In this document: one piece after another, positions 11,735 through 25,085 of the stretch | Position numbering within the stretch: the first letter of the stretch is position 1 | Layout of the letters: every line of letters starts with the position of its first letter | DNA from: an uncultured delta proteobacterium | Lineage (GTDB): Bacteria > Desulfobacterota > RBG-13-43-22 | Assembly (NCBI GenBank): GCA_963802945.1 | Contig: CAWDKY010000032.1 | Location: forward strand, 1-64,000 | Direction of reading: 5' to 3' | Length of the DNA: 64,000 nt | Made by a program: the position numbers and the translations under genes | The notes under the pieces: generated by a model | The model's input: the letters and a program-made list of their open reading frames with translations, nothing else | Told to the model about the DNA's origin: nothing | Databases searched by the model: none

Positions 11735-12691
11735 TTACTCCCTTATTTTTTGCAGCATGAGACCAAGGGTTTCCTGAACGATGGAATAGGGGTCCTTCTC
11801 TCCCCTTTCGATTTGCTGCACGGCCTTTTCGAGGTTTCCATCTTTTTCCCAAAGTTGGAGAATCAGACCGAGTAATTGTTTTTCCAGCAAAGCGATGAGC
11901 TCTTCTCTGATCCGCACCCCCTGCCAAACCCGTCGACGGTCGGAAGAGGCCAGGAGGTTCAGGCTAGTGTTTACCAACTCGGTTATGCCTTCATTCTGAC
12001 TGGCCACGGTTCGGAGGACAGGTGGCCTGGGGTTGTTCTGGGATGAATCCAACTCCAGCATGGCCTGAATATCAAGAAAAACTTGTTCCGCGCCATCCCG
12101 ATCCGACTTGTTGACCACGAAGATATCAGCGATTTCCATGATGCCGGCCTTAAGGGCCTGTACCCCGTCTCCTTGTCCCGGAACGCAGACAACCAGGACC
12201 AGATCGGCTGCCCGGACCACTTCCACTTCATCCTGCCCTACCCCGACCGTTTCGATGAGCACCAAGTCCTTGCCAAAGGCATCCAGAATCTTGGCTACAT
12301 CCCGGGCCGATTGATTTAGGCCGCCCAAAGCCCCTCTGGTGGCCATGGAACGAATGAAGACCTGGTCGAGATTCCACAGGTCTTTCATCCGGACCCGGTC
12401 ACCCAGAATGGAGCCTCCGGAGAAAGGACTGGATGGGTCCACGGCAATGATACCCACTTTGAAGCCCCTGGAAACTAACTCCCGTGCAATTCCGTTGGTT
12501 AATGTACTCTTGCCCGCACCCGGTGAACCGGTGACTCCGATGAGCCGGGCCTTGCCGGACAGGGAGTAAATCTGCTGCATGGCCTCCATCCAGCCGGGCT
12601 CACGATTTTCAACCCGGCTCACTAAACGGGACAGGGCCCGAACTGATCCCTGGCGCATGTTATCAATTAGCTCCGACCAATCGTTGTTCAT
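11735..12691 (-). CDS. meaB: MeaB/ArgK acyl-CoA mutase-associated GTPase
   Basis: GSPGAGKST, AVDPSSPFSGGSILGDRVRM, ETVGVGQDE and NKSD. Confidence 0.95.
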   Translation of the reverse strand: MNNDWSELIDNMRQGSVRALSRLVSRVENREPGWMEAMQQIYSLSGKARLIGVTGSPGAGKSTLTNGIARELVSRGFKVGIIAVDPSSPFSGGSILGDRVRMKDLWNLDQVFIRSMATRGALGGLNQSARDVAKILDAFGKDLVLIETVGVGQDEVEVVRAADLVLVVCVPGQGDGVQALKAGIMEIADIFVVNKSDRDGAEQVFLDIQAMLELDSSQNNPRPPVLRTVASQNEGITELVNTSLNLLASSDRRRVWQGVRIREELIALLEKQLLGLILQLWEKDGNLEKAVQQIERGEKDPYSIVQETLGLMLQKIRE

Positions 12692-12697
12692 GATTTT

Positions 12698-13885
12698 TCA
12701 AACGACTTTTTCCAGCCGCAAGGCGTCTATTTTTTCCTTTGAGAAGCCCAAAAGTTGCGACAGGATCTCTTCCGTATTTTCTCCCATAACAGGAGGATAA
12801 GTGTATTTAGTCCTCAATTCCGGCGGCGTTCCTGACATTTTGATGGGGTTCGCGGTCTGTCTTATCCGCCCGCCCGAATCATTTTCAATCGTGGCCACCA
12901 TATCCGTTGCCGCCACCTGCGGATCGGCCAGGGCTTTGTCCAATGAATTTACCGGCCCGCTGGGCACATCGGCCTCGGTGAGCAGCTTCATCCATTCGTC
13001 GGTCCCCTTGGTAAGAAAAATCTCCTGAATGACTGCATTTCGCTGTTTTTTATTTTCACGAGTGGCCGGACCTTTAAAAAGGGGCTCCTTGAGCACCTCT
13101 TCCCGGCCCATGGCCTTAAACAAACGGGGATATTTATCCCCCACAGCGGCGATGGCGATATACCCATCCTTGGTCTGAAAGGCCTGATAAACCGGGAGGG
13201 TGCGATGCCCTGAACCTACCGGTCCCGGCACTTCGCCAGTTGCAAAATAAATACTCGCTTCATATGCCAGCAGGGCTAATGTGGCTTCAAAAAGTGAGGT
13301 CTCCACTTTTTGCCCCGCGCCGGTGTGTTCCCGGGCATAAAGGGCGGCCATAATGCCATGAGCGGCAAACATGCCTGCACCCAGATCGCTGATGGCGATT
13401 CCTGCCCTCACCGGCGGCCTGCCTTCCTCACCGGTAATGCTCATAGACCCAGTGATGGCCTGGATGGTCACATCATAAGCCGGCCGGTCCCGATAGGGAC
13501 CGTTGGAACCGAACCCGCTGATAGAACAGCAGATGATACGGGGATTAATATTTTTGAGGGTTTCATAGTCCATTTTTAGCCTCTCGAGTACTCCGGGCCT
13601 GAAATTGTCCAACACGACGTCAGAAATTTTCACCAGATCGTAGAAGATCTCCCTCCCCTTCTCCGTCCGGGTATCCAGAGTGATACTCTTCTTGCTGCGG
13701 TTGATGCTCATATTGTAGGCATCCTGCCCTCTATAGGCAGTCGGTCCGGTGAATCCTCTATTGGCGGCCACAGCCTCGATTTTTATAATCTCCGCACCCA
13801 GATCACCCAAAATCATCGAACCAAAGGGGCCGGCTAAGGCACGGGTGAGATCAAGAACTCTTACAGTAGCTAATGCCGTTTCCAT
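12698..13885 (-). CDS. Family III (CaiB/BaiF) CoA transferase
   Basis: VLDLTRALAGP, NRSKKSITLD, NFRPG, SGFGSNGPY..PAYD and catalytic ISD. Confidence 0.93.
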   Translation of the reverse strand: METALATVRVLDLTRALAGPFGSMILGDLGAEIIKIEAVAANRGFTGPTAYRGQDAYNMSINRSKKSITLDTRTEKGREIFYDLVKISDVVLDNFRPGVLERLKMDYETLKNINPRIICCSISGFGSNGPYRDRPAYDVTIQAITGSMSITGEEGRPPVRAGIAISDLGAGMFAAHGIMAALYAREHTGAGQKVETSLFEATLALLAYEASIYFATGEVPGPVGSGHRTLPVYQAFQTKDGYIAIAAVGDKYPRLFKAMGREEVLKEPLFKGPATRENKKQRNAVIQEIFLTKGTDEWMKLLTEADVPSGPVNSLDKALADPQVAATDMVATIENDSGGRIRQTANPIKMSGTPPELRTKYTYPPVMGENTEEILSQLLGFSKEKIDALRLEKVV

Positions 13886-13917
13886 TAATTAATTTCCTTT
13901 CTATGATGTAATAAAAA

Positions 13918-13975
13918 AAGGTTTAAGGTTCAAGGTGTAAGGTCCAAGGAAAAACCTTAAACCATAAACCATGTA
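13918..13975. repeat. Heptamer array plus inverted array
   Basis: AAGGTTT-AAGGTTC-AAGGTGT-AAGGTCC-AAGGAAAAACCTT-AAACCAT-AAACCAT. Confidence 0.8.
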
Positions 13976-15334
13976 TCATGTACCTTGAACTTTTGGTTGA
14001 ACGCGTTTCACGAACGTTTTTATATTCTTCAAATCTTCCAAGGCCAGGATGGATTTTAGGATCTTATCCGCCCGCTCTCGGCCCATAACGGGGGCGCACA
14101 AATCCATAAATTTAGTTCGCACCTTTTCCTTTTTTATTTCCAGTTCAGGTATTTCATTGAGAATGTCATTAAAACCTTGAAACACCCGGCCGGCATGGGT
14201 CTTCACTTCGACCTTGGCGGCCAGGCCCTGAATGTTTGAATCCAACACAACCTCAATCTTTTTCATCAAATCCCTTATGTCGGGATCATCCACCTTTTCA
14301 TCGGTAAAGGCCTGCATGCCCGTATCGCCTCTCAAAAGGGCATTGGCCACACAATAATAAATACTGAATTTGCCTTCCAGTCCGGTCTTCGGGATCGTTT
14401 TCCCGGCGATGGCTATGGCTGTTTGAGAAGTGCGTACGGTTATGGATTGGATGTCTGGAGCAGTCAAATTATCTTCCTTGACCATGTTTAACACAGCCTC
14501 TATGGCCGAATGGGTACCATGACAAGAGGCATGGTATTTCTGGGCCAGTTTGTCCGTATCCCAGGTTCTTCCCAACGAGGCCACGGCCCTTTCGTTTACC
14601 CGGCCTTTTAAAAGCTGGAAAAAACCGTCCGGCCCTTCCAGGATATCCTCGGCACTGGTGAATTGATCATCGGCCAACAGAACCGCTTCCAATCCCACCT
14701 GGGAGGCCCGGCCGGCATGATAGGGCTTGCACATGGTACCAAACACCCGCTTTAACCCTGAGGCCTGAGTTCCGGCTATGCCCAGGGCATAAACTGTCTG
14801 TTGTTCGTCCAATCCCAACAATCGGGCACAACCGGCGGCTGAGGCCAAACGTCCTATGGTTGAAGTTCCGTGCCACCCGGCCCCGTAATGTTCCACTCCG
14901 GCGCAGACACCGATAACGGCCCCGGCTTTAAGACCAATGATGTAGGCCGTTAAAAAATCAAATCCCGATTTTTCCTTCCACTCGGACAAGGCCAGTAAAC
15001 CTGGGAATAAGGTCACCGAGGGGTGGCCGGAGAATTGGGCCATGGTATCATCATAATCCAGGGCATGCGACATGGCTCCATGAATTAAAGCGGCCTGACT
15101 GACGTTGGTTTTCAGGCCGTGTCCCAGGACCGTGGCCTGAGGATTGCCTCCCATGAGCTCGGCATAATGGATAAGCTTCAATACCAGCGGCTCGTCTTTG
15201 CCGGCCATCCCCACAGCCAGCCAATCCAGAAAGGCTACCTTGGCCTGCTCAAAGCACTCGAAGGGAATGGTTGAAGAATCAATGTCAACAATAAATCGGG
15301 CGATGGTTTTAGTTAGTCCGAGATTTGCTTCCAT
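13976..15334 (-). CDS. MmgE/PrpD family protein
   Basis: HALDYDD, GHPS, GWHGT, KPYHAG, KYHASC and KFSIYY. Confidence 0.92.
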   Translation of the reverse strand: MEANLGLTKTIARFIVDIDSSTIPFECFEQAKVAFLDWLAVGMAGKDEPLVLKLIHYAELMGGNPQATVLGHGLKTNVSQAALIHGAMSHALDYDDTMAQFSGHPSVTLFPGLLALSEWKEKSGFDFLTAYIIGLKAGAVIGVCAGVEHYGAGWHGTSTIGRLASAAGCARLLGLDEQQTVYALGIAGTQASGLKRVFGTMCKPYHAGRASQVGLEAVLLADDQFTSAEDILEGPDGFFQLLKGRVNERAVASLGRTWDTDKLAQKYHASCHGTHSAIEAVLNMVKEDNLTAPDIQSITVRTSQTAIAIAGKTIPKTGLEGKFSIYYCVANALLRGDTGMQAFTDEKVDDPDIRDLMKKIEVVLDSNIQGLAAKVEVKTHAGRVFQGFNDILNEIPELEIKKEKVRTKFMDLCAPVMGRERADKILKSILALEDLKNIKTFVKRVQPKVQGT

Positions 15335-15357
15335 CCTTTCACTCCTCTAAAAAGAAA

Positions 15358-15468
15358 ATAGGGTACATGGTACACGGTGCACGGTACAGGGTATAAGGTC
15401 TAAGGTTCACGGTATATGGTATATGGTTTAAGGTTTTCCTTACACCTTGTACCTTAAACCTTGGACCT
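15358..15468. repeat. Heptamer array plus inverted array
   Basis: About 10 units of N(A/C/T)GGTNN, then AAGGTTTTCCTT, then ACCTT-type inverted units. Confidence 0.8.
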
Positions 15469-15469
15469 A

Positions 15470-16267
15470 TTATCTGCCTTTAAATTCCGGTTTACGTTTT
15501 TGCATAAAGGCCTTCTGGGCTTCTTTCAGATCCTCACTGTTGAAGGCCTGGCCTATAAGTTTGTTGGCCTCCCGGCGGTCCTCGTCCGACAATTTGAACG
15601 ATTGAGAAAGCAGATTCAGAATTCTTTTCGTTCCTTTTACGGATAAAGGGGAATTACCGGCAATTTCTTCGGCCATTACATAGACAAAGGATTCCAATTC
15701 CTGCCTGGGCAGCAGGTAATGTACCAGCCCCATTTCCTTGGCTCTCCCCGCAGGATAATAGCGTCCGGTAAAAAAAAGCTCCCGGGTATTGGAAATTCCG
15801 ATGATCTGAATAAAACGCATCAACCCCGCCAGTTGATAAATCAAACCCAATTTAGCCGGGGGCATGCCCATTCGTATATCGTCGGCCCCGATGCGCAGAT
15901 CGCAGCAGACGGCCAATTCACAGCCCGCACCAAAGGCATACCCATTCAACAGAGCAATAACAGGATAGGGGAAGTTGATGACGCTGTTCAAGGCAAGCTC
16001 CAGGGGGTTCTGTTCTCTCAACTGTTCCCGGGTTCTTGGGGAAACCTCGGTGGGAATGGCACCGATATCATACCCCGATGAAAAGGCTTGGTCACCGGCA
16101 CCGCGTATGACCACTGCTCGCACTGTGTCCTCTTGAATAAAATCTTCCAGGGCCTGGTGCATTTTGATCAACATGTCCGGAGAAAGGGAGTTTCGTTTTT
16201 CAGGACGGTTTATGACCAGGGTTCCCACCTGGTCTTTTATCTCAACCAATAAAGTCTCTGTGCTCAC
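15470..16267 (-). CDS. Crotonase-superfamily enzyme (enoyl-CoA hydratase/ScpB-like)
   Basis: NRPEKRNS, FSSGYDI, PVIALLNG, GAGCEL, MPPAKLGLIY and KRKPEFKGR. Confidence 0.9.
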   Translation of the reverse strand: MSTETLLVEIKDQVGTLVINRPEKRNSLSPDMLIKMHQALEDFIQEDTVRAVVIRGAGDQAFSSGYDIGAIPTEVSPRTREQLREQNPLELALNSVINFPYPVIALLNGYAFGAGCELAVCCDLRIGADDIRMGMPPAKLGLIYQLAGLMRFIQIIGISNTRELFFTGRYYPAGRAKEMGLVHYLLPRQELESFVYVMAEEIAGNSPLSVKGTKRILNLLSQSFKLSDEDRREANKLIGQAFNSEDLKEAQKAFMQKRKPEFKGR

Positions 16268-16289
16268 TTGGATACCTCCATAATTTTGA

Positions 16290-16392
16290 AAATAGGGTAC
16301 AAGGTTCAGGGTTTAAGGTCCAAGGTAAAACCTCAAACCCTATACCGTGAACCTTGTACCCTATACCTTGAACCTTAAACCCTGCACTGTGT
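16290..16392. repeat. Heptamer array plus inverted array
   Basis: AGGGTAC-AAGGTTC-AGGGTTT-AAGGTCC-AAGGTAAAACCTC followed by about 8 ACC(T/C)-type units. Confidence 0.8.
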
Positions 16393-16397
16393 CTATC

Positions 16398-16802
16398 TCA
16401 CCCGTTGAGATGGACATGCTTCTTGATCGCCTCCACAATCTGATCTATGCTGGCTCCGGAGGTAAAGATCTCCGCCACCCCCATTTCCTTCAGGGCTGGG
16501 ATATCTTCATCTGGAATAACTCCCCCCAGCACCAGCACTACATCTTCGCCCCCTTGGGCCTTTAGTCCTTCAGCCACCCGCCGGGTCAGGGCCAGATGAG
16601 CCCCGGAAAGAATAGACAGACCCACCACGTCCACATCCTCCTGTATGGCCGCCCGAACAATGGAATCGGTGGTCTGCCTCAGACCTGAATAGATCACTTC
16701 AAAACCAGCGTCGCGTAGAGAATAGGCAATCACTTTGGCCCCTCTGTCGTGACCGTCCAGGCCGGGCTTGGCCACAAGTACCCTGATTCTTTTTTCAGTC
16801 AT
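16398..16802 (-). CDS. Cobalamin-binding small subunit of an acyl-CoA mutase
   Basis: [10 protein letters not shown] (DxHxxG), SILSGAH and GGVIP. Confidence 0.95.
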
Positions 16803-16827
16803 GGCTGTTCTCCTTTAAAACAATATT

Positions 16828-16892
16828 ATGGTGCAAGGTGCACGGTATAGGGTTTAAGGTTTTCCCTTGGACCTATCCTTTACCCCTTGAAT
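16828..16892. repeat. Heptamer array plus inverted array
   Basis: ATGGTGC-AAGGTGC-ACGGTAT-AGGGTTT-AAGGTTTTCCCTT-GGACCT. Confidence 0.75.
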
Positions 16893-16936
16893 CTCTTTCA
16901 TGCTAAACTGCGCCCGCATAAAACGGACATAGGGAT

Positions 16937-18727
16937 TCAATCGAAAATGGGATCGCATTCGATCAACTCCACAGGAATCCCGGTCAGGCGCTCAATGTCT
17001 TTGTATACCCTTCCGGTCAGATCCCTTCCCCATCCGCTCAAATGAAAAGGAGAGGAGGGGATGACGATCAAGTCAGGCAACACCCGATCTTCATTTAAAA
17101 AGTCTTTTACCGCGGCGATAAAATCTTCCACCACCAACAAATCACCCATAAAGATATTTCCCCCCAAGTATTGATTGGACGGAACACGCAGATGGAAATG
17201 CACATCAGCCGGGAAAAGGGTTTCCCGGATCCGTTTTTCTAATATGGGTTTTACCAGGGTGGAGGTCAAAACCAGTATCTCCCGAGCCTTCTCTGAAGCA
17301 ATCATGGTTTGCAGTTGTTCCATCCAACTTAAGGGGATCCCGGCCGATGGGAAGACACATCCGGCAAAGGGGACTGTTCGAGGGTCAAAGGGGTATTCGA
17401 AGTGATTCAAATCCATGTCCAGATCCAACAATCCACCAGACCGCTCCACGATCAGCGAAACTTTTTCCAGGCTGCTGTTTTGGACCATCCCTAATAGGGA
17501 AAGGGCCTGGGTCCGGTTTTTGATCCGAAGGCCGTTGATGCCGATTAACCGGTCTCCGAGTACCAAACCTGCTCTGGCCGCCGGAGAATGCTTAATCACC
17601 CCAATCAGACGTGGAGTGTCAATGGCCTCCGGGTCCAAGTATTCTTCATATAAACCGGGACGAATGATCAGGGGACAGTCCGTAACGGTCCTGAGGTGCT
17701 GAATCTCGATCTTCAACCGGTTCCAAACCTCTTCCCGATCAAAAAGGGTCTTTTTGGAAAACCAACGCGAATACCCCGGCAGGCTGATCTGAATATAGGC
17801 TGGGCTAAAGCGGGCTGAAAAAGCAACGGTTGGGGCAAGGTCCTCCAGCATTTCTTTAAAGGAAGGGAAAGGCCAGGGCACAATGACCACCGAATAGGGA
17901 ATATGGGTGGACCCAAGTTCGGCCAAGGCATTGAGGGCCACCTCTGGTTTATGGTCTCCCATAAGCCAGCGACGACGATTGGGCGAACTGGTATTTAAGG
18001 AGAGATCTATAAGCAAAGGCTGATATTGAGACAAGTCCCGAATCATCTCTGGAGTGAGAAGGGATCCGTTGGTCGGGATCCGAAAGACTTCGTCGGTCTT
18101 TCGGCGAAGGGCAGCCAGTATCTCCAGGATATAGGGATGGGTAAGCATCTCACAGGGACTGCCCGTATCGGGGAACAGACTTAACTTGGACCCTGGGACG
18201 TAATAAGCAATGCGGGTCAAAATTTCCTGATATTCTGCTTCGGCCTTTCGGGAAGTCTCTTTGAAGACCGGCGGGCTACCGAGGTTGTAACAAAAACGAC
18301 ACTTCAGGTTGCAGCGGGTGGCTGCCTGGGCCAGGATGTCGGCAGCCCCGCCGCCGGGTTTCAGCCATTGATCAGGTCTTTTCAAGCGAAAACCGTCTAT
18401 TCGAACTGGCTTTCCCTGATATTCGAAATCCACGATGGAAAGGATCAATTCCATCCATTGGCGGATATAAGGAAGGCGCGGTTCATAAATGTCCAGACGA
18501 TCAATGTATTGGGCAGACTCCTGGTTGACATCAGGATAAAGGGGATGGTCCATATCGGGTTCGTCCAACAGACGATATCCGTCTATGTGGACCCTTTTAC
18601 CCTTCCAGGTGAGAGTCAACAGGTCCAGGATGGCCCGAAGGTGCCCGGCCAACATTTCTTGTAGGTTCAAAGGACCAGGGCGAGAAACATCTCCCACCGG
18701 GTACCTGAAAAGGTACTCCATATTCAT
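16937..18727 (-). CDS. Radical SAM protein with PDZ and C-terminal DUF512-like domain
   Basis: CNLKCRFC (CxxxCxxC), PTNGSLL, PDZ (HSPAARAGLVLGDRLIGING), and DUF512-like NQYLGGNIFMGDLLVVEDF..DLIVIP..GIPVELI. Start placed at ATG 18727 after AAGGAA, which avoids overlap with the mutase. Confidence 0.82.
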   Translation of the reverse strand: MNMEYLFRYPVGDVSRPGPLNLQEMLAGHLRAILDLLTLTWKGKRVHIDGYRLLDEPDMDHPLYPDVNQESAQYIDRLDIYEPRLPYIRQWMELILSIVDFEYQGKPVRIDGFRLKRPDQWLKPGGGAADILAQAATRCNLKCRFCYNLGSPPVFKETSRKAEAEYQEILTRIAYYVPGSKLSLFPDTGSPCEMLTHPYILEILAALRRKTDEVFRIPTNGSLLTPEMIRDLSQYQPLLIDLSLNTSSPNRRRWLMGDHKPEVALNALAELGSTHIPYSVVIVPWPFPSFKEMLEDLAPTVAFSARFSPAYIQISLPGYSRWFSKKTLFDREEVWNRLKIEIQHLRTVTDCPLIIRPGLYEEYLDPEAIDTPRLIGVIKHSPAARAGLVLGDRLIGINGLRIKNRTQALSLLGMVQNSSLEKVSLIVERSGGLLDLDMDLNHFEYPFDPRTVPFAGCVFPSAGIPLSWMEQLQTMIASEKAREILVLTSTLVKPILEKRIRETLFPADVHFHLRVPSNQYLGGNIFMGDLLVVEDFIAAVKDFLNEDRVLPDLIVIPSSPFHLSGWGRDLTGRVYKDIERLTGIPVELIECDPIFD

Positions 18728-18767
18728 TTGGGAATTCCTTATGATGTTAGGTTCCAACCCGGGTTCT

Positions 18768-20516
18768 TTAGAAAATGGAAGGGGGATCATATTCTCCGAA
18801 AACATCCCTGAGTACATCGCAAACCTCTTGTAAGGTGACGTAAGCCTTGGCGCAAGCAATCAGGTGACTGACCAGGTTTACTTTCTCTTCCGTTGCTTGT
18901 TTTTTTAACTCGATCAATAGCCTCTGAACCTCCGAGTTATCCCTTTTCTTCTTGACCTCTTTTAAATTGGCGATCTGTTTCTCCTCCGCCCGGGCACGTC
19001 GATCGGGATCATAAGGGTGCGGGACCAGGCGTGTGGTCTGAACCTCAAGTTCGTGTTCGCCGGTAAAACAGTTCACTCCCACCACCAGGATTTCACCGCT
19101 GGCGATTTTTTTCTGATGTTCATAGGCGTTTCGAGTCACCTCCCGTTGAACATAGCCCTGTTCAATGGCGGCCACGATTCCTCCCATCTTATCCAGTTTG
19201 TCCAATTCGGCCCAGGCCTCTCTCTCAATCTCATCGGTCGTGGCTTCCATATAATAAGAACCGGCGAAAGGGTCGGTCACTTCCATCAATCTGGCCTCGC
19301 AGGACAGGATTCGACTGACGTCCTGAGATAATTGCGAAGCCTCCCGGCTCCATCCCAGTCCGAGTGGTTCGTCATATGGCGGGAAGGCCGATGGTGGTCC
19401 CCCGGATAAGGCCCCGGCCACGGCCCCAAGAACAGCCCTGGTCAGGTTATTCAGCGGTCGCTGTTTGGTGGTGCTCGAAGGCCCGATATGGGCGGTCATC
19501 TGTTCCCTGAGCAGCATACTGCGGGGATTCTTGGCCCCGAAACGCTCTTTGAGAATTCGGGCATACATACGGCGGGCAGCCCTCTGAAAGGCTATTTCCT
19601 GCAAGAACTCCATACTCCCGCCCATGGCGTTGAAGGTGAAACGGGGTGCAAAGGCGTCCACCTCCAAACCGGCATCAATCCCTTCCTGCAGATAGGCGCA
19701 GGCAATGGCCATACTATAAGCCAGGTCCTGAACACGCGTGGCCCCGGCTTCCCGGATGTGATAACCTCCCATGCTGGTAATATTCATACGCGGCATATAT
19801 TGGTTGATAAAGGTCAGGGTGTCCCGGAAAAAACGCATGGCCGATTTGGGTGGGAAAATATAGGCCCCCCGGGCGATATATTCTTTCAAGATATCATTTT
19901 GAGGGGTGGCCTGCAGTTTGTCCAAAGGGATACCCCGCTTTTCGGCCAAGGCCGCATACATGGCGATCAGATAAATAGCCGGGGCATTGATGGTGAAATT
20001 GGAAGCGATGCGGTCCAGGTTAAGGTCCCCCTGATAAGGTTCGTAAATTATCTCCAGGTCTCGAAGGGTATCGATGGCTACTCCCACCTTGCCCACCTCT
20101 CCGGCCATCAAGGGATTGTCGGAGTCGTAGCCGCATTGCGTCACCAGGTCCATAGCCAGATTGGGGCCTTGCCGGGCGCCCCGGGAAATAGTCTGTTTAT
20201 AATAGTCCCGGGTGTCTTCCGGCGTTCCGTATCCGGAATAGCCTGAGGCCCGGGTCAACCCTGAGCCGGAACGGCTACTCCTAGCCGCTGTCCTGGAAAC
20301 ACCGGCCCGGGGATCGAATGGATAGATGTTGGCGGTAAACGGATACTCTCCCGGAAAGCCGACCTGGTTAAGAAAATCAAAGTCCTGGATATCTAGAGGC
20401 GTATAGAATCGGCTGGGAGATTCGTTAAAAATTGGAAAACGCTCCAGGGCCTTCTTCACCGTCCGATCCTGCCATTGCTGTCTTCTCTGACGGATTTTTT
20501 CATATTGATCGCTCAT
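18768..20516 (-). CDS. Divergent acyl-CoA mutase large (substrate-binding) subunit, methylmalonyl-CoA mutase family
   Basis: GFPGEYPFT, GYDSD..GEVGKVGVAIDT, FTINAPA, QNDILKEYIARG, GYHIREAG and DPFAGSYY. Confidence 0.93.
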   Translation of the reverse strand: MSDQYEKIRQRRQQWQDRTVKKALERFPIFNESPSRFYTPLDIQDFDFLNQVGFPGEYPFTANIYPFDPRAGVSRTAARSSRSGSGLTRASGYSGYGTPEDTRDYYKQTISRGARQGPNLAMDLVTQCGYDSDNPLMAGEVGKVGVAIDTLRDLEIIYEPYQGDLNLDRIASNFTINAPAIYLIAMYAALAEKRGIPLDKLQATPQNDILKEYIARGAYIFPPKSAMRFFRDTLTFINQYMPRMNITSMGGYHIREAGATRVQDLAYSMAIACAYLQEGIDAGLEVDAFAPRFTFNAMGGSMEFLQEIAFQRAARRMYARILKERFGAKNPRSMLLREQMTAHIGPSSTTKQRPLNNLTRAVLGAVAGALSGGPPSAFPPYDEPLGLGWSREASQLSQDVSRILSCEARLMEVTDPFAGSYYMEATTDEIEREAWAELDKLDKMGGIVAAIEQGYVQREVTRNAYEHQKKIASGEILVVGVNCFTGEHELEVQTTRLVPHPYDPDRRARAEEKQIANLKEVKKKRDNSEVQRLLIELKKQATEEKVNLVSHLIACAKAYVTLQEVCDVLRDVFGEYDPPSIF

Positions 20517-20559
20517 CTTTTCCCCTCCGAGTAAAAAATTCTTGCTTGATATTATATTG

Positions 20560-20636
20560 ACGGTTCAAGTTTAAGGTCTAGGCTTTTACCCTTGCACCCT
20601 ACACCATGCACCGTGTACCTTACACCTTGTATGCCT
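20560..20636. repeat. Heptamer array plus inverted array
   Basis: ACGGTTC-AAGTTT-AAGGTCT-AGGCTTTTACCCTT followed by GCACCCT-ACACCAT-GCACCGT-GTACCTT-ACACCTT. Confidence 0.75.
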
Positions 20637-21371
20637 TCATGTGTTGACTCTCACCAACTCAGCCACACCTTGATAGACATCTCCAGGGAAATGGGTGACC
20701 GCCATCTCCAGGGCCCGACCCGACCTGGAAAAATAAATCCGCTTAACGACCAGAAGTGGAGCCCCTTTTTTAACGCCCATAATCCTTGCCAAAGAGGGAT
20801 CGGCCATCGAGGCTGAGATGATCTGCCGACCGCGTTTTACGGTTTCCAAAATTTCCCTCTCAACCCTCTCGATGAATAGCGGGCGGGACGGATCCTTCAA
20901 TCGAATATTTTTCCCGATCTCTTCCGGGACAAAGGCCTGGAAAAAGGCCTGACGCTCACTATAAAGATACCGAAGACCTTCAAAGAGATAAACTTTTTCC
21001 TTTGGGCTAAGTTCCATATCCTTTACAATCCCAGGGTCTGGATTGATCAATCTCTTAGAATGAAGCTTCAAAAGGGTTTGAGCCCCCATTTGAAAAAGGT
21101 CTTCCACCATTCCATAGAGTCTGAACTTTATAGGATTTTCTTTGCGAAAGGAGACAAAAGTACCTCGACCCTGCTCTCGGCGAATGAGGTCGTCACTTTC
21201 AAGAGAAAGGAGGGCCTGTCTTACGGTGATCCGGCTGACCCCAAATTCCTGACACAACTCTTTTTCGGTAGGCACGGCTTGATCGGTTTTGAGTTTGCCG
21301 GAAAGGATCCGTTTTCGGAGAACCTTTTCCAGTTGATAGTAAAGGGGAACAGGATTTTTCTTTAATTTCAT
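20637..21371 (-). CDS. GntR-family regulator, HutC/UTRA subfamily
   Basis: PLYYQL, PTEKELCQEFGVSRITVRQAL and QGRGTFV, with a C-terminal UTRA-like domain. Confidence 0.93.
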   Translation of the reverse strand: MKLKKNPVPLYYQLEKVLRKRILSGKLKTDQAVPTEKELCQEFGVSRITVRQALLSLESDDLIRREQGRGTFVSFRKENPIKFRLYGMVEDLFQMGAQTLLKLHSKRLINPDPGIVKDMELSPKEKVYLFEGLRYLYSERQAFFQAFVPEEIGKNIRLKDPSRPLFIERVEREILETVKRGRQIISASMADPSLARIMGVKKGAPLLVVKRIYFSRSGRALEMAVTHFPGDVYQGVAELVRVNT

Positions 21372-21458
21372 CCCAAACTCTCCCGCCGGGGCAGGCCATG
21401 AAGGGTTATCTATGGAAAAGTTATAAGAACTTTGATGACTTTGGTATGAATGACAGAA

Positions 21459-21487
21459 AGGTTATAATGTCATAACAAATTTGTCAA
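21459..21487 (-). promoter_or_regulatory. Promoter of gntR with an overlapping palindromic operator
   Basis: Minus strand TTGACA-N17-TAACCT. The near-palindrome GTTATAATGTCATAAC (21461-21476) overlaps it. Confidence 0.55.
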
Positions 21488-21623
21488 CCGTTTTTTGAGT
21501 GGAACCAGGAATGGATTCACAATTTAAGTCCTCATCTTTTTCATCTCAACTTATCTCCAGTTTTAATCTCCCGATTAAATATTTAGAGGCAAACTCTGTG
21601 ATGAATTGATTAGCTTAGCGGGT

Positions 21624-22157
21624 TTATTTGGGAAAGATCACTCTTCGCCAAGAGATTATCCATAGAGGAATCAACAAAACACTTTCCACCGAAAAGCAAA
21701 ATAGGGCCTGAGTCCAAAAGTCAGGATGCCCCCAAGTCCGAAGCACACGGGGAAAGATGGGAACAGAAGACAAAAAATAAGTTTCAGAAACAGGCCAAAA
21801 CATTGGAAATCCAGAAGGCGCTTCTGTGAAAAAATCCAAAAAGAGGTGTGAAAATACAAGGATAAAAATAAAACCGCTCGTTTTTAGAAAAGACCGAGTC
21901 CATCCTAAAAAGGCAATTAAAAATCCGGCCATCAAAGATAAGCCAACTGCCGTCCCCAGACTGTGAAAAAATCCATGATGAAACCGGCCGGGATTCCCCA
22001 AAAAGAGCCCCGGAATAAAATCCAGGTCAGGAGCAAGAGCCCCTAAAACAACCAAACCATAAAGCAGCCAGGTATTTATTCGGGAAGTAACCGGTCGTGG
22101 ATAACAGAGGTTAAATAGACTCAGACCGACCAAGGCGTGTCCATAAGGAGAAGCCAT
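21624..22157 (-). CDS. Membrane-bound metal-dependent hydrolase (YdjM/DUF457-like)
   Basis: GHAL, APDLD, HHGFFHS, SHLFLD and FWP motifs. Confidence 0.85.
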   Translation of the reverse strand: MASPYGHALVGLSLFNLCYPRPVTSRINTWLLYGLVVLGALAPDLDFIPGLFLGNPGRFHHGFFHSLGTAVGLSLMAGFLIAFLGWTRSFLKTSGFIFILVFSHLFLDFFTEAPSGFPMFWPVSETYFLSSVPIFPRVLRTWGHPDFWTQALFCFSVESVLLIPLWIISWRRVIFPK

Positions 22158-22160
22158 ATT

Positions 22161-23186
22161 TCAGGCAACCTCCCCCCCTCCCTCACCCTCCCCCTCGGAA
22201 GGGGGAGGGAAGGGGTGGGGGTGGTCATCCGATTCGGGGTTGTTTTCAGATGATCCTTTGAGATAAAAATAAGCCCCTGGAAGCCCAACGAGGATATTTC
22301 CCAAGTTGGAAGCAAATCCGAGGGTAAAGGCCACAGTAGTCGAAATTCCAAAAAAAGAAAATAAAGCGATAAACAGCCCTTCTTGAATCCCAAAGCCGCT
22401 CAGGGAAACAGGTATCCGGGCAAAAAATTGGGCAATGGGGATGATGGGGACCAAATAAAGGAAGGGCACGGAAAGGCCCAAAGTCAAAACTAAAAAGTAA
22501 ATGGTCAAAATAGGCACCAGCTGTTCCCCAAAGGACCACAAGAAAAATTTTCCCAAGGCTTTAGGCTGAATTCGATAGAGTACGAAGGACGAAGTTATTT
22601 TGGAGATCTTGTCGGCCCAGGGAAGCTTGGCCATGAAGTTTTTTAAGGCCGTCGGTCCGCCCCCGCGCATAAGGAGGACAAGAAATAAAACACCGGCGGA
22701 CAGGAAGGTTAACAGGAGCCATAAAAGGAACCTGGGAAAATCGGGGACGAAAAAGAACAGCAGGGGAATGGCCATAAGGGCCATTATGGCCGAAGAAAGA
22801 AATCCGAGAAACCTTTCCATGATAATGGATGAGATCACATCGACCCCTGTTTGGGTGTTCCGGGAAAGCTCATAGGCGCGGATGGCATCCCCTCCCAGGG
22901 AGGTGGGAAATAAATTGCCTAAAAATGTCCCTTTAAAATAGACCACGATGAGTTTTTCCCAGGAACAGGAAATCGCTTTGGCATCGAGGAGTATCTTCCA
23001 TTTGTAAGCCATGACAAAACGGTCAAAAAAATTAAGGGCGAAATATCCGATCAGGTATGGCCAGCGAATATTTTTCAGGAGCTCGGCCAATTCCCTCTGG
23101 TTGACAAAACGGAGCAGAAATAAAATGAGAAGGAGACTGACCAGCAGCTTCCAGAAATAGGAATTCAGATTCGACTTGTTCATCAA
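22161..23186 (-). CDS. Lysylphosphatidylglycerol-synthase TM / flippase-like membrane protein
   Basis: Multi-TM, with PTSLGGDAIR, SIIMERFLG and IPVSLSGFGIQEG. Confidence 0.85.
   Translation of the reverse strand: MMNKSNLNSYFWKLLVSLLLILFLLRFVNQRELAELLKNIRWPYLIGYFALNFFDRFVMAYKWKILLDAKAISCSWEKLIVVYFKGTFLGNLFPTSLGGDAIRAYELSRNTQTGVDVISSIIMERFLGFLSSAIMALMAIPLLFFFVPDFPRFLLWLLLTFLSAGVLFLVLLMRGGGPTALKNFMAKLPWADKISKITSSFVLYRIQPKALGKFFLWSFGEQLVPILTIYFLVLTLGLSVPFLYLVPIIPIAQFFARIPVSLSGFGIQEGLFIALFSFFGISTTVAFTLGFASNLGNILVGLPGAYFYLKGSSENNPESDDHPHPFPPPSEGEGEGGGEVA
22172..22224. repeat. C-rich/G-rich REP-like palindrome within the 3' end of the CDS
   Basis: CCCTCACCCTCCCCCTCGGAAGGGGGAGGGAAGGGG. Near copies at 26312-26364 and 53622-53668. 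Confidence 0.8.
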
Positions 23187-23225
23187 AACCTAATGGAATA
23201 GTAGATTAATTATTTCAACCGGCGG

Positions 23226-25085
23226 TCAGGCGAAAAATCGTTGATGCCACAACCCCAAATTCAACAAGGCCCAGAGGATATGATTGTGATTATGAGTCCG
23301 GGCCATGTGCTGTTCAATAAGCTTCCCTACAAAAGGGCCATTCATATAATCTCTTATAACCGGGGACTCGTTCAACACAGTGATCAAGGGCTCTTTAAGC
23401 CCTTCACGCAGCCAATTCTTAATAGGCAGACTATAACCCTGTTTCCCCCGCCAGACGATCTGATCCGGCAGAAGGCCGCTTAAGGCCTCTCGGAAAATGG
23501 CCTTGGTGCGAAATCCTTTTAATTTCCAATCTCCGGGCAGAGAGGCCGTGAATTCCACAAAACGGTGATCCAGAAAGGGGACACGGATCTCCAGGGCATG
23601 GGCCATACTCATCTTATCGACCTTCATCAGGACCGAGTCGGGCATCATGAAACGTAAATCAACATAAAGCTCCTGATCCAGTCGATCAATCCCGTCCCAG
23701 TTTGATTTAAACGTCCTTACAGGGGCAAAGGGATCCATCTTAACCCGTCCTTTGAACAGATCGTTATACAACCGGTCATCCTGCGTGGCCGAAGAAAAAT
23801 ATTGCCACCTTAGGTGCCCCCCATCCAAAGGTAGATGGGAGCCTTCCACAAATCGTTTCACGATATTGATCAGTCCTTTTTTTTGGGGCTGATCCGGAAG
23901 GGCCTCGATGATCGGAAAAATCATTTTTTCTCTGATCAGTGAAGGCAGGATGCGGTAAACTTGATCGGCCTTACTGGCCTTAAAGCGGTCATAGCCGGCA
24001 AATATTTCATCCCCGCCTTCTCCGGAAAGACAAACGGTCACATATTTTTTGGCCTCCCGGCAAACCAAATAAAGGGGTAAGGCCGAAAGATCGGTCATGG
24101 GTTCATCGAGATGCCAGACCGTCTCTTCCAGGTCATTCAAGGTAACTTCAGGAATCATCAGAACCGTATGGTCGGTATCAAATTGTTTGGCCACCAATTC
24201 GGCATAAGGCAGCTCGCTGAAAGAAGGATCCGAATAACCGATGGAAAAGGTCCTTAAAGGATTCACCCCCAACCGTCGCATCAAGGCCACCAGGGTGCTG
24301 GAATCCAATCCCCCGGAGAGAAAAACACCCAAAGGAACATCACTGATCAGGTGTTTTTGAACGGTTTCCTGAAGCAGGCGACGCAGTTCAACGACCGCTT
24401 CCTCCTGGGTCAGCGAAGTGCCGGGCCGGTTGAGATCCCAATAAGGTTTTAGGGTCAATTCATTACCGGATAACCTCAGGTAGTGACCTGGAGGAAGTTT
24501 ATTAATCCCCTCAAACATGGTCAAGGGGCTGGGTACGAATTCATAGCCCAAGTAATAATACAAGGCCTGAAGATCAACGCCTCGTGGTATTTCCGGGATT
24601 TGTAACAGGGCTTTGATCTCCGAAGCAAAGGCCAGCCGTCCTTTTTGGAAATAATAATAAAGGGGCTTTATTCCCAAACGGTCCCGGGCGACAAGGAGCT
24701 TCTGTTGACTTTGGTCCCAAAGCCCGAAAGCGAACATGCCTTGCAGACGGTCCAAACATTTTTCCGCCCATTCCTCATAGGCGTGAATAATGACCTCGGA
24801 GTCGGCTTTGCTTCGGAAATGATGTCCTTTATCTTCCAATTCCTGACGGAGTTCTAAAAAATTATAAATTTCCCCGTTAAAAACCAGTTGAATGGTTCCG
24901 TCTTCATTGGGCATAGGCTGACTGCCCTGCTCGGACAGGTCAATGATGGACAGGCGGCGGAATCCCATGGTAATCCCCGGTTCAGTAAAAACCCCTTCCT
25001 GGTCCGGCCCGCGATGTTTTATTATTTGGCACAGCCGCTCTCCAAGAGAGCGATCCGGCCAGTTAAATCCTACAATCCCGCACAC
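23226..25085 (-). CDS. asnB: Asparagine synthase (glutamine-hydrolysing)-family amidotransferase
   Basis: N-terminal CGI, HRGPD, RRLSIID, NGEIYN, LSGGLDSS, SGEGGDE and RVPFLD. Confidence 0.93.
   Translation of the reverse strand: MCGIVGFNWPDRSLGERLCQIIKHRGPDQEGVFTEPGITMGFRRLSIIDLSEQGSQPMPNEDGTIQLVFNGEIYNFLELRQELEDKGHHFRSKADSEVIIHAYEEWAEKCLDRLQGMFAFGLWDQSQQKLLVARDRLGIKPLYYYFQKGRLAFASEIKALLQIPEIPRGVDLQALYYYLGYEFVPSPLTMFEGINKLPPGHYLRLSGNELTLKPYWDLNRPGTSLTQEEAVVELRRLLQETVQKHLISDVPLGVFLSGGLDSSTLVALMRRLGVNPLRTFSIGYSDPSFSELPYAELVAKQFDTDHTVLMIPEVTLNDLEETVWHLDEPMTDLSALPLYLVCREAKKYVTVCLSGEGGDEIFAGYDRFKASKADQVYRILPSLIREKMIFPIIEALPDQPQKKGLINIVKRFVEGSHLPLDGGHLRWQYFSSATQDDRLYNDLFKGRVKMDPFAPVRTFKSNWDGIDRLDQELYVDLRFMMPDSVLMKVDKMSMAHALEIRVPFLDHRFVEFTASLPGDWKLKGFRTKAIFREALSGLLPDQIVWRGKQGYSLPIKNWLREGLKEPLITVLNESPVIRDYMNGPFVGKLIEQHMARTHNHNHILWALLNLGLWHQRFFA

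What the first reader, a model, noticed from the sequence alone, without database searches (positions are those of the whole stretch)
16937..18727. Radical SAM-PDZ-DUF512-like protein wedged between the two mutase subunit genes
Seen: CxxxCxxC, a PDZ segment and a C-terminal segment I recognise as DUF512-like. Known: DUF512 is the cobalamin-binding domain of Mmp10, which methylates an arginine of methyl-CoM reductase. Inference: a second B12 enzyme in the operon, acting as a post-translational maturase or reactivase of the mutase, or as a C-methylase of the substrate. I know of no described radical SAM partner for acyl-CoA mutases.
Basis: partly seen in the sequence, partly recalled or inferred. 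Interest (0 to 1): 0.8.

Follow-up and report, generated by a model that had tools for sequence, protein, structure and literature searches.

The report
B12 radical SAM enzyme beside mutase
A gene lying between the two subunit genes of a B12-dependent acyl-CoA mutase encodes an unusual, probably cobalamin-binding radical SAM enzyme that travels with this mutase in several bacterial phyla and whose function is unknown.

Summary
Window 16937-18727 (-) encodes a 596-aa protein with four parts: a duplicated N-terminal module of no known family, a radical SAM core (C139-x3-C143-x2-C146), a PDZ domain, and a C-terminal domain. The C-terminal domain is a divergent DUF512, the cobalamin-binding domain of Mmp10-type "class 2" B12 radical SAM enzymes. 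It scores below Pfam's cut-off, but profile-profile comparison gives 89.7% probability (E 1.9e-6) and the Leu beneath the corrin is invariant.

The gene sits between the large and small subunit genes of a split acyl-CoA mutase. That mutase keeps the carboxylate-binding Tyr and Arg of methylmalonyl-CoA mutase.

The link is conserved. Among relatives at least 38% identical with 3 kb or more of flank, 48 of 56 have a mutase subunit in the locus. Within the genus, the gene and the mutase orthologue appear or are missing together. The surrounding module (MeaB, crotonase, MmgE/PrpD, CoA-transferase) lies beside MasD-type alkylsuccinate synthase genes in other genomes.

One mutase clade, including those of cultured alkane degraders, lacks the gene.

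Best guess (0.38): a maturase acting on the mutase. Replacement of the adenosyltransferase is disfavoured. Structure tools were off. New variant of a known kind.

The parts
16937..18727 (-). Gene for the 596-aa radical SAM / PDZ / DUF512-like protein (stop codon included). It is single-copy in the genome.
18338..18727 (-). N-terminal module, residues 1-130. It is an internal tandem duplication of a helix plus 'V-x-(I/V)-D-G-(F/Y)-R-L' unit and belongs to no known family.
   Evidence: No Pfam or PDB sequence hit. hhalign of residues 24-53 against 86-115 gives 97% probability, E 2.8e-11.
17648..18337 (-). Radical SAM core, roughly residues 131-360. The boundaries are approximate.
   Evidence: Pfam PF04055 covers residues 137-293 above its cut-off. 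E193 is invariant in 'GSPCE', a GGE-like motif; that motif name is recalled.
18290..18313 (-). Codons for C139-x3-C143-x2-C146, the cluster-binding motif. It is followed directly by the invariant Y147.
   Evidence: Invariant columns in A1. The aromatic residue after the motif matches Y23, F95 and Y47 of Mmp10, csDUF512 and pfDUF512 as described in PMC11659888.
17405..17635 (-). PDZ domain, roughly residues 365-441, with the psi-G-psi carboxylate-binding loop I375-G376-V377.
   Evidence: Pfam PDZ_6 above its cut-off. PDB hits to RseP and DegP PDZ domains. G376, S381, P382 and D392 are invariant.
16940..17365 (-). C-terminal DUF512-like domain, the presumed cobalamin-binding domain, roughly residues 455-596. 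It carries the motif G522-G-N-I-F-M-G-D-L530.
   Evidence: L530 aligns with the invariant Leu of canonical DUF512, which is Leu286 of pfDUF512, the residue beneath the cobalt.
18768..20516 (-). Acyl-CoA mutase large (substrate-binding) subunit, 582 aa. Y93 and R216 correspond to MCM Tyr89 and Arg207. A clade-specific insertion of about 20 aa precedes Y93. The hydrophobic C-terminus reads ...FGEYDPPSIF.
16398..16802 (-). Mutase small B12-binding subunit, 134 aa, with D16-x-H18-x-x-G21.
15470..16267 (-). Crotonase-family protein. Among its closest NCBIfam models is methylmalonyl-CoA decarboxylase, but the score is below that model's cut-off.
13976..15334 (-). MmgE/PrpD-family protein.
12698..13885 (-). 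Family III CoA-transferase.
11735..12691 (-). MeaB-type G-protein chaperone of mutases. It scores above the TIGR00750 cut-off.
20637..21371 (-). GntR/UTRA-family regulator upstream of the operon.
   Evidence: It is conserved upstream in 10 of 56 well-flanked loci.
20551..20580 (-). Best sigma-70-like promoter match (10 of 12) just upstream of the mutase large-subunit gene. This is a consensus match only.
   Evidence: The number of sites found does not exceed the shuffles by much.

Best explanation
The gene encodes a cobalamin-dependent radical SAM enzyme of the Mmp10/DUF512 type ('class 2'), built in an undescribed order: duplicated N-terminal module, radical SAM core, PDZ domain, cobalamin-binding domain. 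It is a dedicated accessory of one clade of split, AdoCbl-dependent, substituted-succinyl-CoA mutase. That mutase belongs to a catabolic module (CoA-transferase, mutase, MeaB, crotonase or carboxyltransferase, MmgE/PrpD) that lies beside MasD-type alkylsuccinate synthase genes in other genomes.

Proposed mechanism. The enzyme works in sub-stoichiometric amounts on the mutase protein itself. The PDZ domain docks on the conserved hydrophobic C-terminal tail of the large subunit. The [4Fe-4S]/SAM site makes a 5'-deoxyadenosyl radical that abstracts a hydrogen from a mutase residue. Methylcobalamin held in the DUF512 domain then transfers a methyl group, as Mmp10 does to methyl-CoM reductase.

Shown here: the domain composition, the homology to DUF512 with the key contact residues conserved, single-copy status, and synteny and co-occurrence with this mutase clade across phyla.

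Inferred: cobalamin binding, methyl transfer, a protein substrate, docking of the PDZ domain on the mutase tail, and the identity of the target residue.
For: (1) Enzyme class.
- The radical SAM and PDZ domains score above the Pfam cut-offs.
- DUF512 homology at profile level: hhalign 89.7%, E 1.9e-6; 28 of 29 relatives hit PF04459; the two solved DUF512 proteins are the top PDB hits.
- The invariant L530 aligns with the Leu under the corrin. The invariant Y147 follows CxxxCxxC as in Mmp10, csDUF512 and pfDUF512.
- Language-model neighbours outside its own family are radical SAM + DUF512 clusters (score 0.97).

(2) Coupling to this mutase.
- 48 of 56 well-flanked relatives (>=38% identity) have a mutase subunit in the locus, and 7 of the other 8 have further module genes.
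- The gap to mutS is <=500 nt in 28 of 56 loci, and to mutL in 25 of 56.
- The order mutL-rSAM-mutS recurs in Thermodesulfobacteriota and Actinomycetota, and other orders occur in Chloroflexota and Bacillota.
- In the genus, 4 genomes have both genes adjacent on one contig. Three genomes of the family (one of the genus) have neither, although they carry other mutases.
- Only one of the three mutase loci of this genome has the gene.

(3) Protein substrate.
- The PDZ domain has an intact psi-G-psi loop.
- The mutase large subunit ends in F, L, I, V or M in 60 of 60 linked sequences, whereas mutS, ECH, PrpD and MeaB have no conserved C-terminus.
- The only DUF512-type enzyme with a known substrate, Mmp10, methylates a protein.
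- Three distant family members lie next to radical SAM/SPASM genes. Such genes are typical of peptide maturation, which is recalled knowledge.
- From general knowledge, radical SAM genes in catabolic operons are usually activases or maturases, because using 2 SAM per turnover on bulk flux is costly.

(4) Mutase residues that track the gene. Y96, E155 and Y559 are 100% conserved in 60 rSAM-linked mutases and are replaced in the 11-member rSAM-less clade.
Against: - A monophyletic clade of related mutases (53-62% identical) sits beside MasD-type genes with no such gene within 10 kb. None was found anywhere in the 5 of those genomes searched whole, which include Desulfatibacillum alkenivorans DSM 16219 and Desulfosarcina alkanivorans PL12. 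A modification therefore cannot be generally required for this chemistry.
- No post-translational modification of any acyl-CoA mutase is known to me (recalled).
- The hydrophobic C-terminus is also present in the rSAM-less clade and in paralogue C53, so it does not discriminate.
- The residues that track the gene stem from a single loss event, so the correlation is not independent of phylogeny.
- R89, the most Mmp10-like candidate target, is missing in 3 linked mutases.
- The DUF512 score is below Pfam's cut-off. The DDD motif of PDZ-bearing DUF512 proteins is absent.
- Neighbourhoods of the distant family members are heterogeneous.
Confidence: 0.38

Rival explanations
1. The enzyme acts on a small molecule of the pathway. 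It would perform a cobalamin-dependent radical reaction (C-methylation, epimerisation or another rearrangement) on the substituted succinate or its CoA thioester, before or after the mutase step. This would adapt the module to a substrate class that the rSAM-less clade does not handle.
For: - The gene lies in a catabolic operon and, in Chloroflexota, directly after a crotonase gene (gap <=500 nt to ECH in 18 of 56 loci).
- The rSAM-less mutase clade differs at residues next to the substrate-binding Tyr (S94G, Y96F, T102Y, Y106L). That pattern would fit a different substrate.
- rSAM-linked clusters more often carry a family III CoA-transferase (28 of 56, against 5 of 48 MasD loci), as well as TRAP transporter genes.
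- An epimerase downstream of MasD is postulated but unidentified (passages of PMC13450708).
Against: - A PDZ domain points to a protein or peptide ligand.
- A methylase consuming two SAM per turnover is implausibly expensive for bulk catabolism in anaerobes (general knowledge).
- The metabolites recalled for anaerobic alkane degradation need no extra methyl group.
- Epimerisation alpha to a thioester needs no radical chemistry.
- All other module genes are shared by the clusters with and without the gene.
Confidence: 0.25
2. The protein is a cofactor chaperone or reactivase. It would hold cob(II)alamin taken from the inactivated mutase and re-form adenosylcobalamin by recombination with a SAM-derived 5'-deoxyadenosyl radical, or it would load cofactor onto the small subunit.
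For: - The DUF512 domain binds cobalamin base-off.
- Purified pfDUF512 and csDUF512 carried 44% and 38% AdoCbl, and 5'-dA sat above the cobalt in pfDUF512 (PMC11659888).
- The gene lies next to the B12-binding subunit gene (gap <=500 nt in 28 of 56 loci).
- This genome, rated 100% complete, has no PduO-type adenosyltransferase.
- From recall, the reactivase gene of glutamate mutase also lies between the two subunit genes.
Against: - The genome has a CobA-type adenosyltransferase and a MeaB gene in the operon.
- Two other mutase loci in the genome, and 3-5 mutase matches in related genomes, have no such partner.
- In one phylum sample, PduO-type transferase is commoner in carriers (11 of 17) than in non-carriers (47 of 284), the opposite of a replacement pattern. 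Relatedness inflates this contrast.
- With named handles the counts were 2 of 5 rSAM-less genomes against 1 of 5 carriers.
Confidence: 0.12
3. The enzyme modifies another protein or peptide: the crotonase, the MmgE/PrpD protein, or a small unannotated peptide. The mutase would then be only a neighbour in the same operon.
For: - ECH is in 44 of 56 loci and PrpD in 36 of 56.
- Three distant family members lie next to radical SAM/SPASM genes.
Against: - ECH and PrpD are kept in the rSAM-less islands.
- Their C-termini are basic or variable.
- There is no room for a conserved small ORF next to the gene in most arrangements. The gap is 40 nt upstream here, and the gene directly abuts ECH in Chloroflexota.
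- Some loci hold only the gene plus mutase genes, for example L104, L113 and L138.
Confidence: 0.1

Closest known systems
PDZ-containing DUF512 radical SAM proteins (csDUF512, PDB 9cg1; TIGR03279-like), the 'class 2 cobalamin-dependent radical SAM enzymes'
   Same: Both combine a radical SAM core, a PDZ domain and a C-terminal Rossmann-like cobalamin-binding domain. Both have the N-x-(F/L)-(F/L)-G...G-L motif carrying the Leu beneath the corrin, and an aromatic residue right after CxxxCxxC. The substrate is unknown in both.
   Different: - Here the PDZ domain lies between the radical SAM core and the cobalamin domain, not at the N-terminus.
- The DDD motif, whose D112 binds the unique iron in csDUF512, is absent.
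- There is an extra duplicated N-terminal module of 130 aa.
- The Pfam DUF512 score is below the cut-off, so the family falls outside the ~6000 sequences counted in PMC11659888.
- Only DUF512 model columns 75-202 align.
- The gene is linked to a mutase.
Mmp10 (methanogenesis marker protein 10), the arginine C5-methylase of methyl-coenzyme M reductase
   Same: It has the same class of cobalamin-binding domain C-terminal to the radical SAM core. It acts as a maturase of a partner enzyme's active-site region, which is the model for the proposed mechanism.
   Different: - Mmp10 has no PDZ domain.
- No sequence hit to an Mmp10 chain appeared in the PDB searches.
- No methanogenesis-marker family was among the 20 NCBIfam hits.
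- The host here is a bacterium.
- The partner enzyme here is itself a B12 enzyme.
Accessory proteins of AdoCbl mutases: MeaB/ArgK G-proteins, PduO-type adenosyltransferase, and the glutamate mutase reactivase MutL/GlmL (this last one recalled)
   Same: The gene is encoded within the mutase operon. Like the glutamate mutase reactivase gene, it lies between the two subunit genes (recalled).
   Different: There is no sequence relationship. MeaB is present as well. The distribution does not complement that of PduO-type transferase.
[quoted passage not shown]
   Same: The same set of neighbouring genes occurs here. In 10 of 56 well-flanked loci a MasD-type glycyl radical enzyme lies in the same locus.
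   Different: - The main text of that paper contains neither 'radical SAM' nor 'PDZ' (its supplements were not seen).
- The Desulfatibacillum-type islands lack the gene.
- This genome has no MasD orthologue; its best glycyl radical enzyme is 34% identical.

Membership tests
Radical SAM superfamily | CxxxCxxC motif that binds the [4Fe-4S] cluster | tested here: met
   C139, C143 and C146 are invariant in 30 homologues.
Radical SAM superfamily | Match to PF04055 above the gathering score | tested here: met
   49.7 bits against 29.5.
Radical SAM superfamily | Reductive cleavage of SAM to the 5'-deoxyadenosyl radical | not testable with these tools
   This needs an enzyme assay.
Class 2 cobalamin-dependent radical SAM enzymes (Mmp10/DUF512) | DUF512 (PF04459) domain C-terminal to the radical SAM core, at Pfam's own threshold | tested here: not met
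   16.4 bits for the whole protein and 20.3 bits for the domain alone, against a cut-off of 25.
Class 2 cobalamin-dependent radical SAM enzymes (Mmp10/DUF512) | Homology of the C-terminal domain to DUF512 at profile level | tested here: met
   hhalign 89.7%, E 1.9e-6, 122 columns. 28 of 29 relatives hit PF04459 at E<=1. 9cg2 and 9cg1 are the top PDB hits.
Class 2 cobalamin-dependent radical SAM enzymes (Mmp10/DUF512) | Leu beneath the cobalt (L322 in Mmp10, L366 in csDUF512, L286 in pfDUF512) | tested here: met
   The invariant L530 aligns with the 'G-L' of pfDUF512 and with the invariant Leu of 12 canonical DUF512 domains. This rests on alignment only, with no structure.
Class 2 cobalamin-dependent radical SAM enzymes (Mmp10/DUF512) | Hydrophobic residue between cluster and corrin, directly after CxxxCxxC (Y23, F95, Y47) | tested here: met
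   Y147 is invariant. The residue's role is taken from PMC11659888.
Class 2 cobalamin-dependent radical SAM enzymes (Mmp10/DUF512) | Thr or Ser hydrogen-bonded to N3 of the dimethylbenzimidazole tail | tested here: inconclusive
   The invariant S489 (with T488) lies 41 residues before L530, a spacing like that in csDUF512 (43) and pfDUF512 (34). No alignment or structure fixes the residue.
Class 2 cobalamin-dependent radical SAM enzymes (Mmp10/DUF512) | Binds cobalamin and forms methylcobalamin from SAM | not testable with these tools
   Needs spectroscopy or LC-MS. No structure model could be made either.
PDZ-bearing DUF512 proteins (csDUF512 type) | N-terminal, circularly permuted PDZ domain that completes a shortened beta3-alpha4 barrel | tested here: not met
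   The PDZ domain is at residues 365-441, after the radical SAM core. Its fold could not be examined.
PDZ-bearing DUF512 proteins (csDUF512 type) | DDD motif on the cluster loop, in which D112 binds the unique iron | tested here: not met
   There is no DDD between C146 and the GSPCE motif. The motif is described in PMC11659888.
Mmp10 proper | Orthology to methanogenesis marker 10 and the presence of methyl-CoM reductase as substrate | tested here: not met
   No Mmp10 chain appeared among the PDB hits and no marker-10 model among the NCBIfam hits. Relatives are bacterial. I did not search the genome for mcrA.
Glycyl radical enzyme activases | PflA-like radical SAM activase family match | tested here: not met
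   No such family was among the 20 NCBIfam hits. 46 of the 56 well-flanked loci have no glycyl radical enzyme gene.

The most novel reading that the evidence does not exclude
This would be the first dedicated radical SAM / cobalamin maturase of an adenosylcobalamin-dependent acyl-CoA mutase. It would install a post-translational modification near the active site, as Mmp10 does for methyl-CoM reductase, using its PDZ domain to dock on the tail of the large subunit. It would be a so-far overlooked component of the carbon-skeleton rearrangement step in anaerobic catabolism of alkylsuccinates and other substituted succinates. It was ancestral to this mutase clade and was lost once, in the Desulfatibacillum-type lineage.
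Probability: 0.33. Interest if true: 0.85.

Novelty: new variant of a known kind. Interest (0 to 1): 0.66.

Why it matters
- The DUF512 or 'class 2' B12 radical SAM enzymes were recognised only in 2024, and only Mmp10 has a known substrate. A subfamily tied to one identifiable partner enzyme in several phyla offers a concrete, testable substrate hypothesis for this class.
- The steps after fumarate addition in anaerobic alkane degradation (epimerisation, carbon-skeleton rearrangement, decarboxylation) have not been reconstituted biochemically. A conserved unknown gene inside the mutase operon is a likely reason why such mutases might fail when expressed alone.
- If the mutase is modified, this would be the first post-translational modification of a B12 mutase.
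- If the protein instead handles the cofactor or a small molecule, it would add a new reaction type to class 2 enzymes.

Tried and rejected
- **Structure and complex tools.** No model, fold search or Mmp10 superposition was therefore possible. Complex prediction of the protein with the small subunit was not available.
- **Single-sequence searches.** The PDB search found only PDZ domains. NCBIfam gave only far sub-threshold radical SAM and PDZ hits.
- **N-terminal module.** No Pfam or PDB hit.
- **Longer family members (685-745 aa).** They showed no extra recognisable domain that could act as a 'Rosetta stone'.
- **'Replaces the adenosyltransferase'.** Tested and disfavoured.
- **'General partner of AdoCbl enzymes'.** One distant member lies 2 kb from a class II ribonucleotide reductase. 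Six other distant loci showed no B12 enzyme, so I treat that case as coincidence.
- **'The PDZ target is marked by a tail found only in linked mutases'.** Rejected. The rSAM-less clade and paralogue C53 also end hydrophobically.
- **'R89 is the Mmp10-like target'.** Weakened. L041, L081 and L082 lack it although the gene is present.
- **Small conserved peptide gene next to the enzyme.** None is evident from the gene spacings. I ran no dedicated small-ORF search.
- **Other local features.** No cobalamin riboswitch or other Rfam family lies in 9000-24000. Promoter and terminator scans did not exceed the shuffles by much.
- **Expression.** No RNA holder was listed.
- **Distant family in Acidobacteriota.** 3 of 301 genomes carried it, too few for statistics.
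- **Limits of the context counts and the tree.** The 38% identity boundary was chosen after seeing the data. The loci came from pattern-based scans and are not a random sample. The mutase tree was a FastTree run whose support values I did not inspect.
- **Literature.** Searches found no paper linking a radical SAM, PDZ or DUF512 protein to an acyl-CoA mutase. Supplements of PMC13685792 (orthogroup tables) and PMC11659888 (network and neighbourhood data) might mention this gene.


Full report
**1. What is at the coordinates**

The minus-strand ORF spans 16937-18859 from a TTG. The ATG at 18727 has AAGGA 8 nt upstream and lies 40 nt after the TAA of the preceding gene. It gives 596 aa, the length of most homologues.

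Pfam finds:
- Radical_SAM at 137-293, 49.7 bits against a cut-off of 29.5;
- PDZ_6 at 377-429, 35.5 bits against 27;
- DUF512 at 470-553, 16.4 bits against 25, E 0.0056.

C139-x3-C143-x2-C146 is invariant in an alignment of 30 homologues (A1). NCBIfam gives only far sub-threshold hits. A single-sequence PDB search sees only PDZ domains.

**2. Is the C-terminal domain really DUF512?**

I aligned the last ~147 residues of the window protein and 28 relatives (A2).
- 28 of 29 members hit PF04459 at E<=1. The best is 9.9e-7; the window's own is 3.7e-4 at 20.3 bits.
- The A2 profile has only three PDB hits at E<=10. The top two are 9cg2 (0.011) and 9cg1 (0.027). By length and residue numbering these fit the P. 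furiosus and C. sporogenes DUF512 proteins of PMC11659888. The full-length profile gives 6.2e-6 for 9cg2.
- I took 12 canonical DUF512 domains from genomes of the same phylum. hhalign of A2 against them gives 89.7% probability, E 1.9e-6, over 122 columns (DUF512 columns 75-202).
- In these alignments the invariant G522-G-N-I-F-M-G-D-L530 matches 'N-x-(F/L)-(F/L)-G...G-L' of the canonical domains. L530 falls on the Leu that lies under the cobalt in Mmp10, csDUF512 and pfDUF512, according to the sections I read.
- The invariant Y147 directly after the cluster motif matches the aromatic residue that sits between cluster and corrin in those structures.
- Language-model neighbours of homologue P0009 outside its own family are radical SAM + DUF512 clusters (0.97).

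I conclude that the domain is a divergent DUF512. It falls below Pfam's threshold, so it lies outside the ~6000 sequences that the 2024 paper built its network from.

**3. How it differs from described DUF512 proteins**

- The PDZ domain lies after the radical SAM core, not at the N-terminus.
- The DDD motif said to be conserved in PDZ-bearing DUF512 proteins is absent.
- There is an N-terminal module of 130 aa with no Pfam or PDB relative. It is an internal duplication: hhalign 97%, E 2.8e-11.
- The PDZ domain keeps the psi-G-psi loop (I375-G376-V377, with G376 invariant).

**4. The family**

- The word-indexed search found 224 proteins at E<=0.001 among the 8000 candidates scored.
- The exhaustive search of 50%-identity representatives found 747 at E<=0.001 and 234 at E<=1e-30.
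- The gene is single-copy in this genome, and no canonical DUF512 protein is present.

**5. Neighbours in the window**

All are on the minus strand, listed in transcription order:
- GntR/UTRA regulator, 20637-21371;
- mutase large subunit, 18768-20516;
- this gene;
- B12-binding small subunit, 16398-16802, with D-x-H-x-x-G;
- crotonase, 15470-16267;
- MmgE/PrpD, 13976-15334;
- family III CoA-transferase, 12698-13885;
- MeaB, 11735-12691.

The closest solved relative of the large subunit is the 2-hydroxyisobutyryl-CoA mutase large subunit, 4r3u. However, it carries Y93 and R216 at the positions of MCM Tyr89 and Arg207, where HcmA has Ile and Gln in the same alignment. The roles of these residues are recalled. 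This points to a substrate with a free carboxylate, a succinyl-CoA derivative.

**6. Conservation of the link**

Two pattern-based scans of species-representative genomes gave 60 and 80 loci. After removal of duplicates, 99 unique loci remained.

Of 86 loci at >=38% identity, 56 have at least 3 kb on both sides. Counts among these 56:

| Gene in the locus | Loci of 56 |
|---|---|
| Any mutase subunit | 48 |
| Mutase large subunit (mutL) | 47 |
| Mutase small subunit (mutS) | 44 |
| Crotonase (ECH) | 44 |
| PrpD-like | 36 |
| CoA-transferase | 28 |
| MeaB | 16 |
| Carboxyltransferase | 14 |
| FabK/NMO-like | 12 |
| MasD-like glycyl radical enzyme | 10 |

- Of the 8 loci without a mutase, 7 carry other module genes.
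- Below 38% identity, 1 of 8 has a mutase.
- The phyla named in the record titles include Thermodesulfobacteriota, Chloroflexota, Bacillota, Actinomycetota and Nitrospinota.
- The order mutL-rSAM-mutS recurs in Actinomycetota.

In a sample of 301 genomes of the phylum, 17 carry the gene. In the window's genus, G038, G076, G109 and G140 carry it directly beside an 87-91% identical large-subunit gene. G201, G171 and G283 have neither, although each has 3-4 other mutase matches. The threshold and the samples carry the caveats given under Tried and rejected.

**7. What the module is**

A glycyl radical enzyme in locus L015 scores 1272.7 bits against 9o8u, the MasD subunit of (1-methylalkyl)succinate synthase. 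Homologues 55-100% identical lie in 10 of the 56 well-flanked loci.

[quoted passage not shown] It calls the mutase the candidate for the carbon-skeleton rearrangement. Its main text contains no 'radical SAM' or 'PDZ' (passages of PMC13685792).

This genome itself has no MasD orthologue; its best glycyl radical enzyme is 34% identical. Several Chloroflexota clusters carry TRAP transporter genes. The module may therefore also serve imported substituted succinates, but that is inference.

**8. A natural control**

Starting from MasD-like genes, I kept 48 loci of at least 12 kb out of the 78 fetched. The radical SAM gene is in only 5 of the 48, while the large subunit is in 21, PrpD in 19 and MeaB in 17.

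Five such genomes have no copy anywhere. They include Desulfatibacillum alkenivorans DSM 16219 and Desulfosarcina alkanivorans PL12.

In a FastTree of the large subunits, 11 of the 12 MasD-linked sequences without the gene in their locus form one clade nested among the rSAM-linked sequences. The twelfth, L145, sits among the linked ones (supports not inspected). That pattern fits one loss.

Eighteen positions are >=90% conserved in the 60 linked sequences and changed in that clade. Six of them lie at residues 89-106, around the substrate Tyr. Y96, E155 and Y559 are 100% conserved in the linked set. Because this is a single evolutionary event, the correlation is only a lead.

**9. Weighing the mechanisms**

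*Cofactor supply or repair.*
- For: the genome lacks a PduO-type adenosyltransferase, and solved DUF512 proteins carried AdoCbl.
- Against: a CobA-type transferase is present. Other mutases manage without the gene. In the phylum sample, PduO-type genes are commoner in carriers (11 of 17) than in non-carriers (47 of 284), with the caveat that relatives are not independent.

*Small-molecule chemistry.*
- For: the operon context and the active-site differences.
- Against: the cost in SAM and the presence of a PDZ domain.

*Protein maturation.*
- For: the PDZ domain; the Mmp10 precedent; the strict pairing with one mutase clade; and a hydrophobic C-terminus on 60 of 60 linked large subunits, where the other cluster proteins have none.
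- Against: the rSAM-less clade shows it is dispensable, and that clade has a hydrophobic tail too.

I rank maturase at 0.38, small molecule at 0.25, cofactor at 0.12 and another protein at 0.10. The remainder is unassigned.

**10. Distant members**

Distant members (about 31-36% identical) sit in varied contexts:
- radical SAM/SPASM genes next door in 3 loci;
- a class B radical SAM plus a PRMT-like methyltransferase and a TPR protein in one;
- a class II ribonucleotide reductase nearby in one.

The link to mutases is therefore specific to the clade.

**11. Verdict**

The conserved pairing with a specific B12 mutase is a solid new observation that I could not find in print. The gene is a new variant of a known kind. 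Interest is 0.66.

Noticed in passing
window 18768-20516 (-), residues ~66-92 of the mutase large subunit: This mutase clade has an insertion of about 20 aa just before the substrate-binding Tyr (...LTRASGYSGYG). Canonical MCM-like paralogues lack it. Paralogue C26 of the same genome has a similar insertion but no radical SAM neighbour.
   Followed up: partly
G000 contigs C53:169161-170808 and C26:27613-29317 (loci L063-L066): The two other mutase large-subunit genes of the genome are each read as two pieces in different frames, with one TAA inside a match. They may be frameshifted genes or assembly errors. The C53 copy is preceded by a carboxyltransferase-like ORF. About 13 kb further upstream lies a glycyl radical enzyme gene (C53:153668-156040), 34% identical to the MasD-like query.
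   Followed up: no
L091, L096, L102, L120 (about 10.0-13.7 kb; L120 4.4-8.1 kb) and L042 (7503-10975): Several Thermodesulfobacteriota loci carry two tandem large-subunit paralogues after rSAM-mutS, and L042 (Chloroflexota) has two in tandem. One radical SAM gene may therefore serve two mutases.
   Followed up: no
L112:3630-5906: A class II-type ribonucleotide reductase (barrel + TSCPD domains) lies about 2 kb upstream of a distant (31%) family member, with a radical SAM/SPASM gene in between. This is a single case.
   Followed up: partly
L129:2960-4726 and 9205-10818; L132:8085-9482 and 9739-10317: Distant family members occur in pairs. In L129 (Planctomycetota) two copies flank a TPR protein, a class B (B12-binding) radical SAM gene and a PRMT-like methyltransferase. 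In L132 a second, shorter DUF512-like ORF lies on the opposite strand.
   Followed up: no
L145 (13169-16979), same contig as L006/L127: A MasD-linked large-subunit gene, 74% identical to the window's, is followed by about 2 kb with no tblastn hit to the radical SAM protein, at the position where relatives carry it. A second, complete cluster with the gene lies elsewhere on the same contig.
   Followed up: no
window 16937-18727 (-), last residues: The enzyme's own C-terminus (...E-C-D-P-I-F-D) is almost invariant. D596 is invariant and C591 is >=90% conserved in A1, and 53 of 66 ORFs end in D. No role is assigned.
   Followed up: no
loci, e.g. L157 (3594-8200): In Desulfatibacillum-type MasD islands the order is mutS-mutL-MeaB-PrpD upstream of the glycyl radical enzyme gene, with ECH-NMO-ECH-carboxyltransferase downstream. 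A family III CoA-transferase is rare there (5 of 48 loci, against 28 of 56 in the rSAM-linked clusters).
   Followed up: partly
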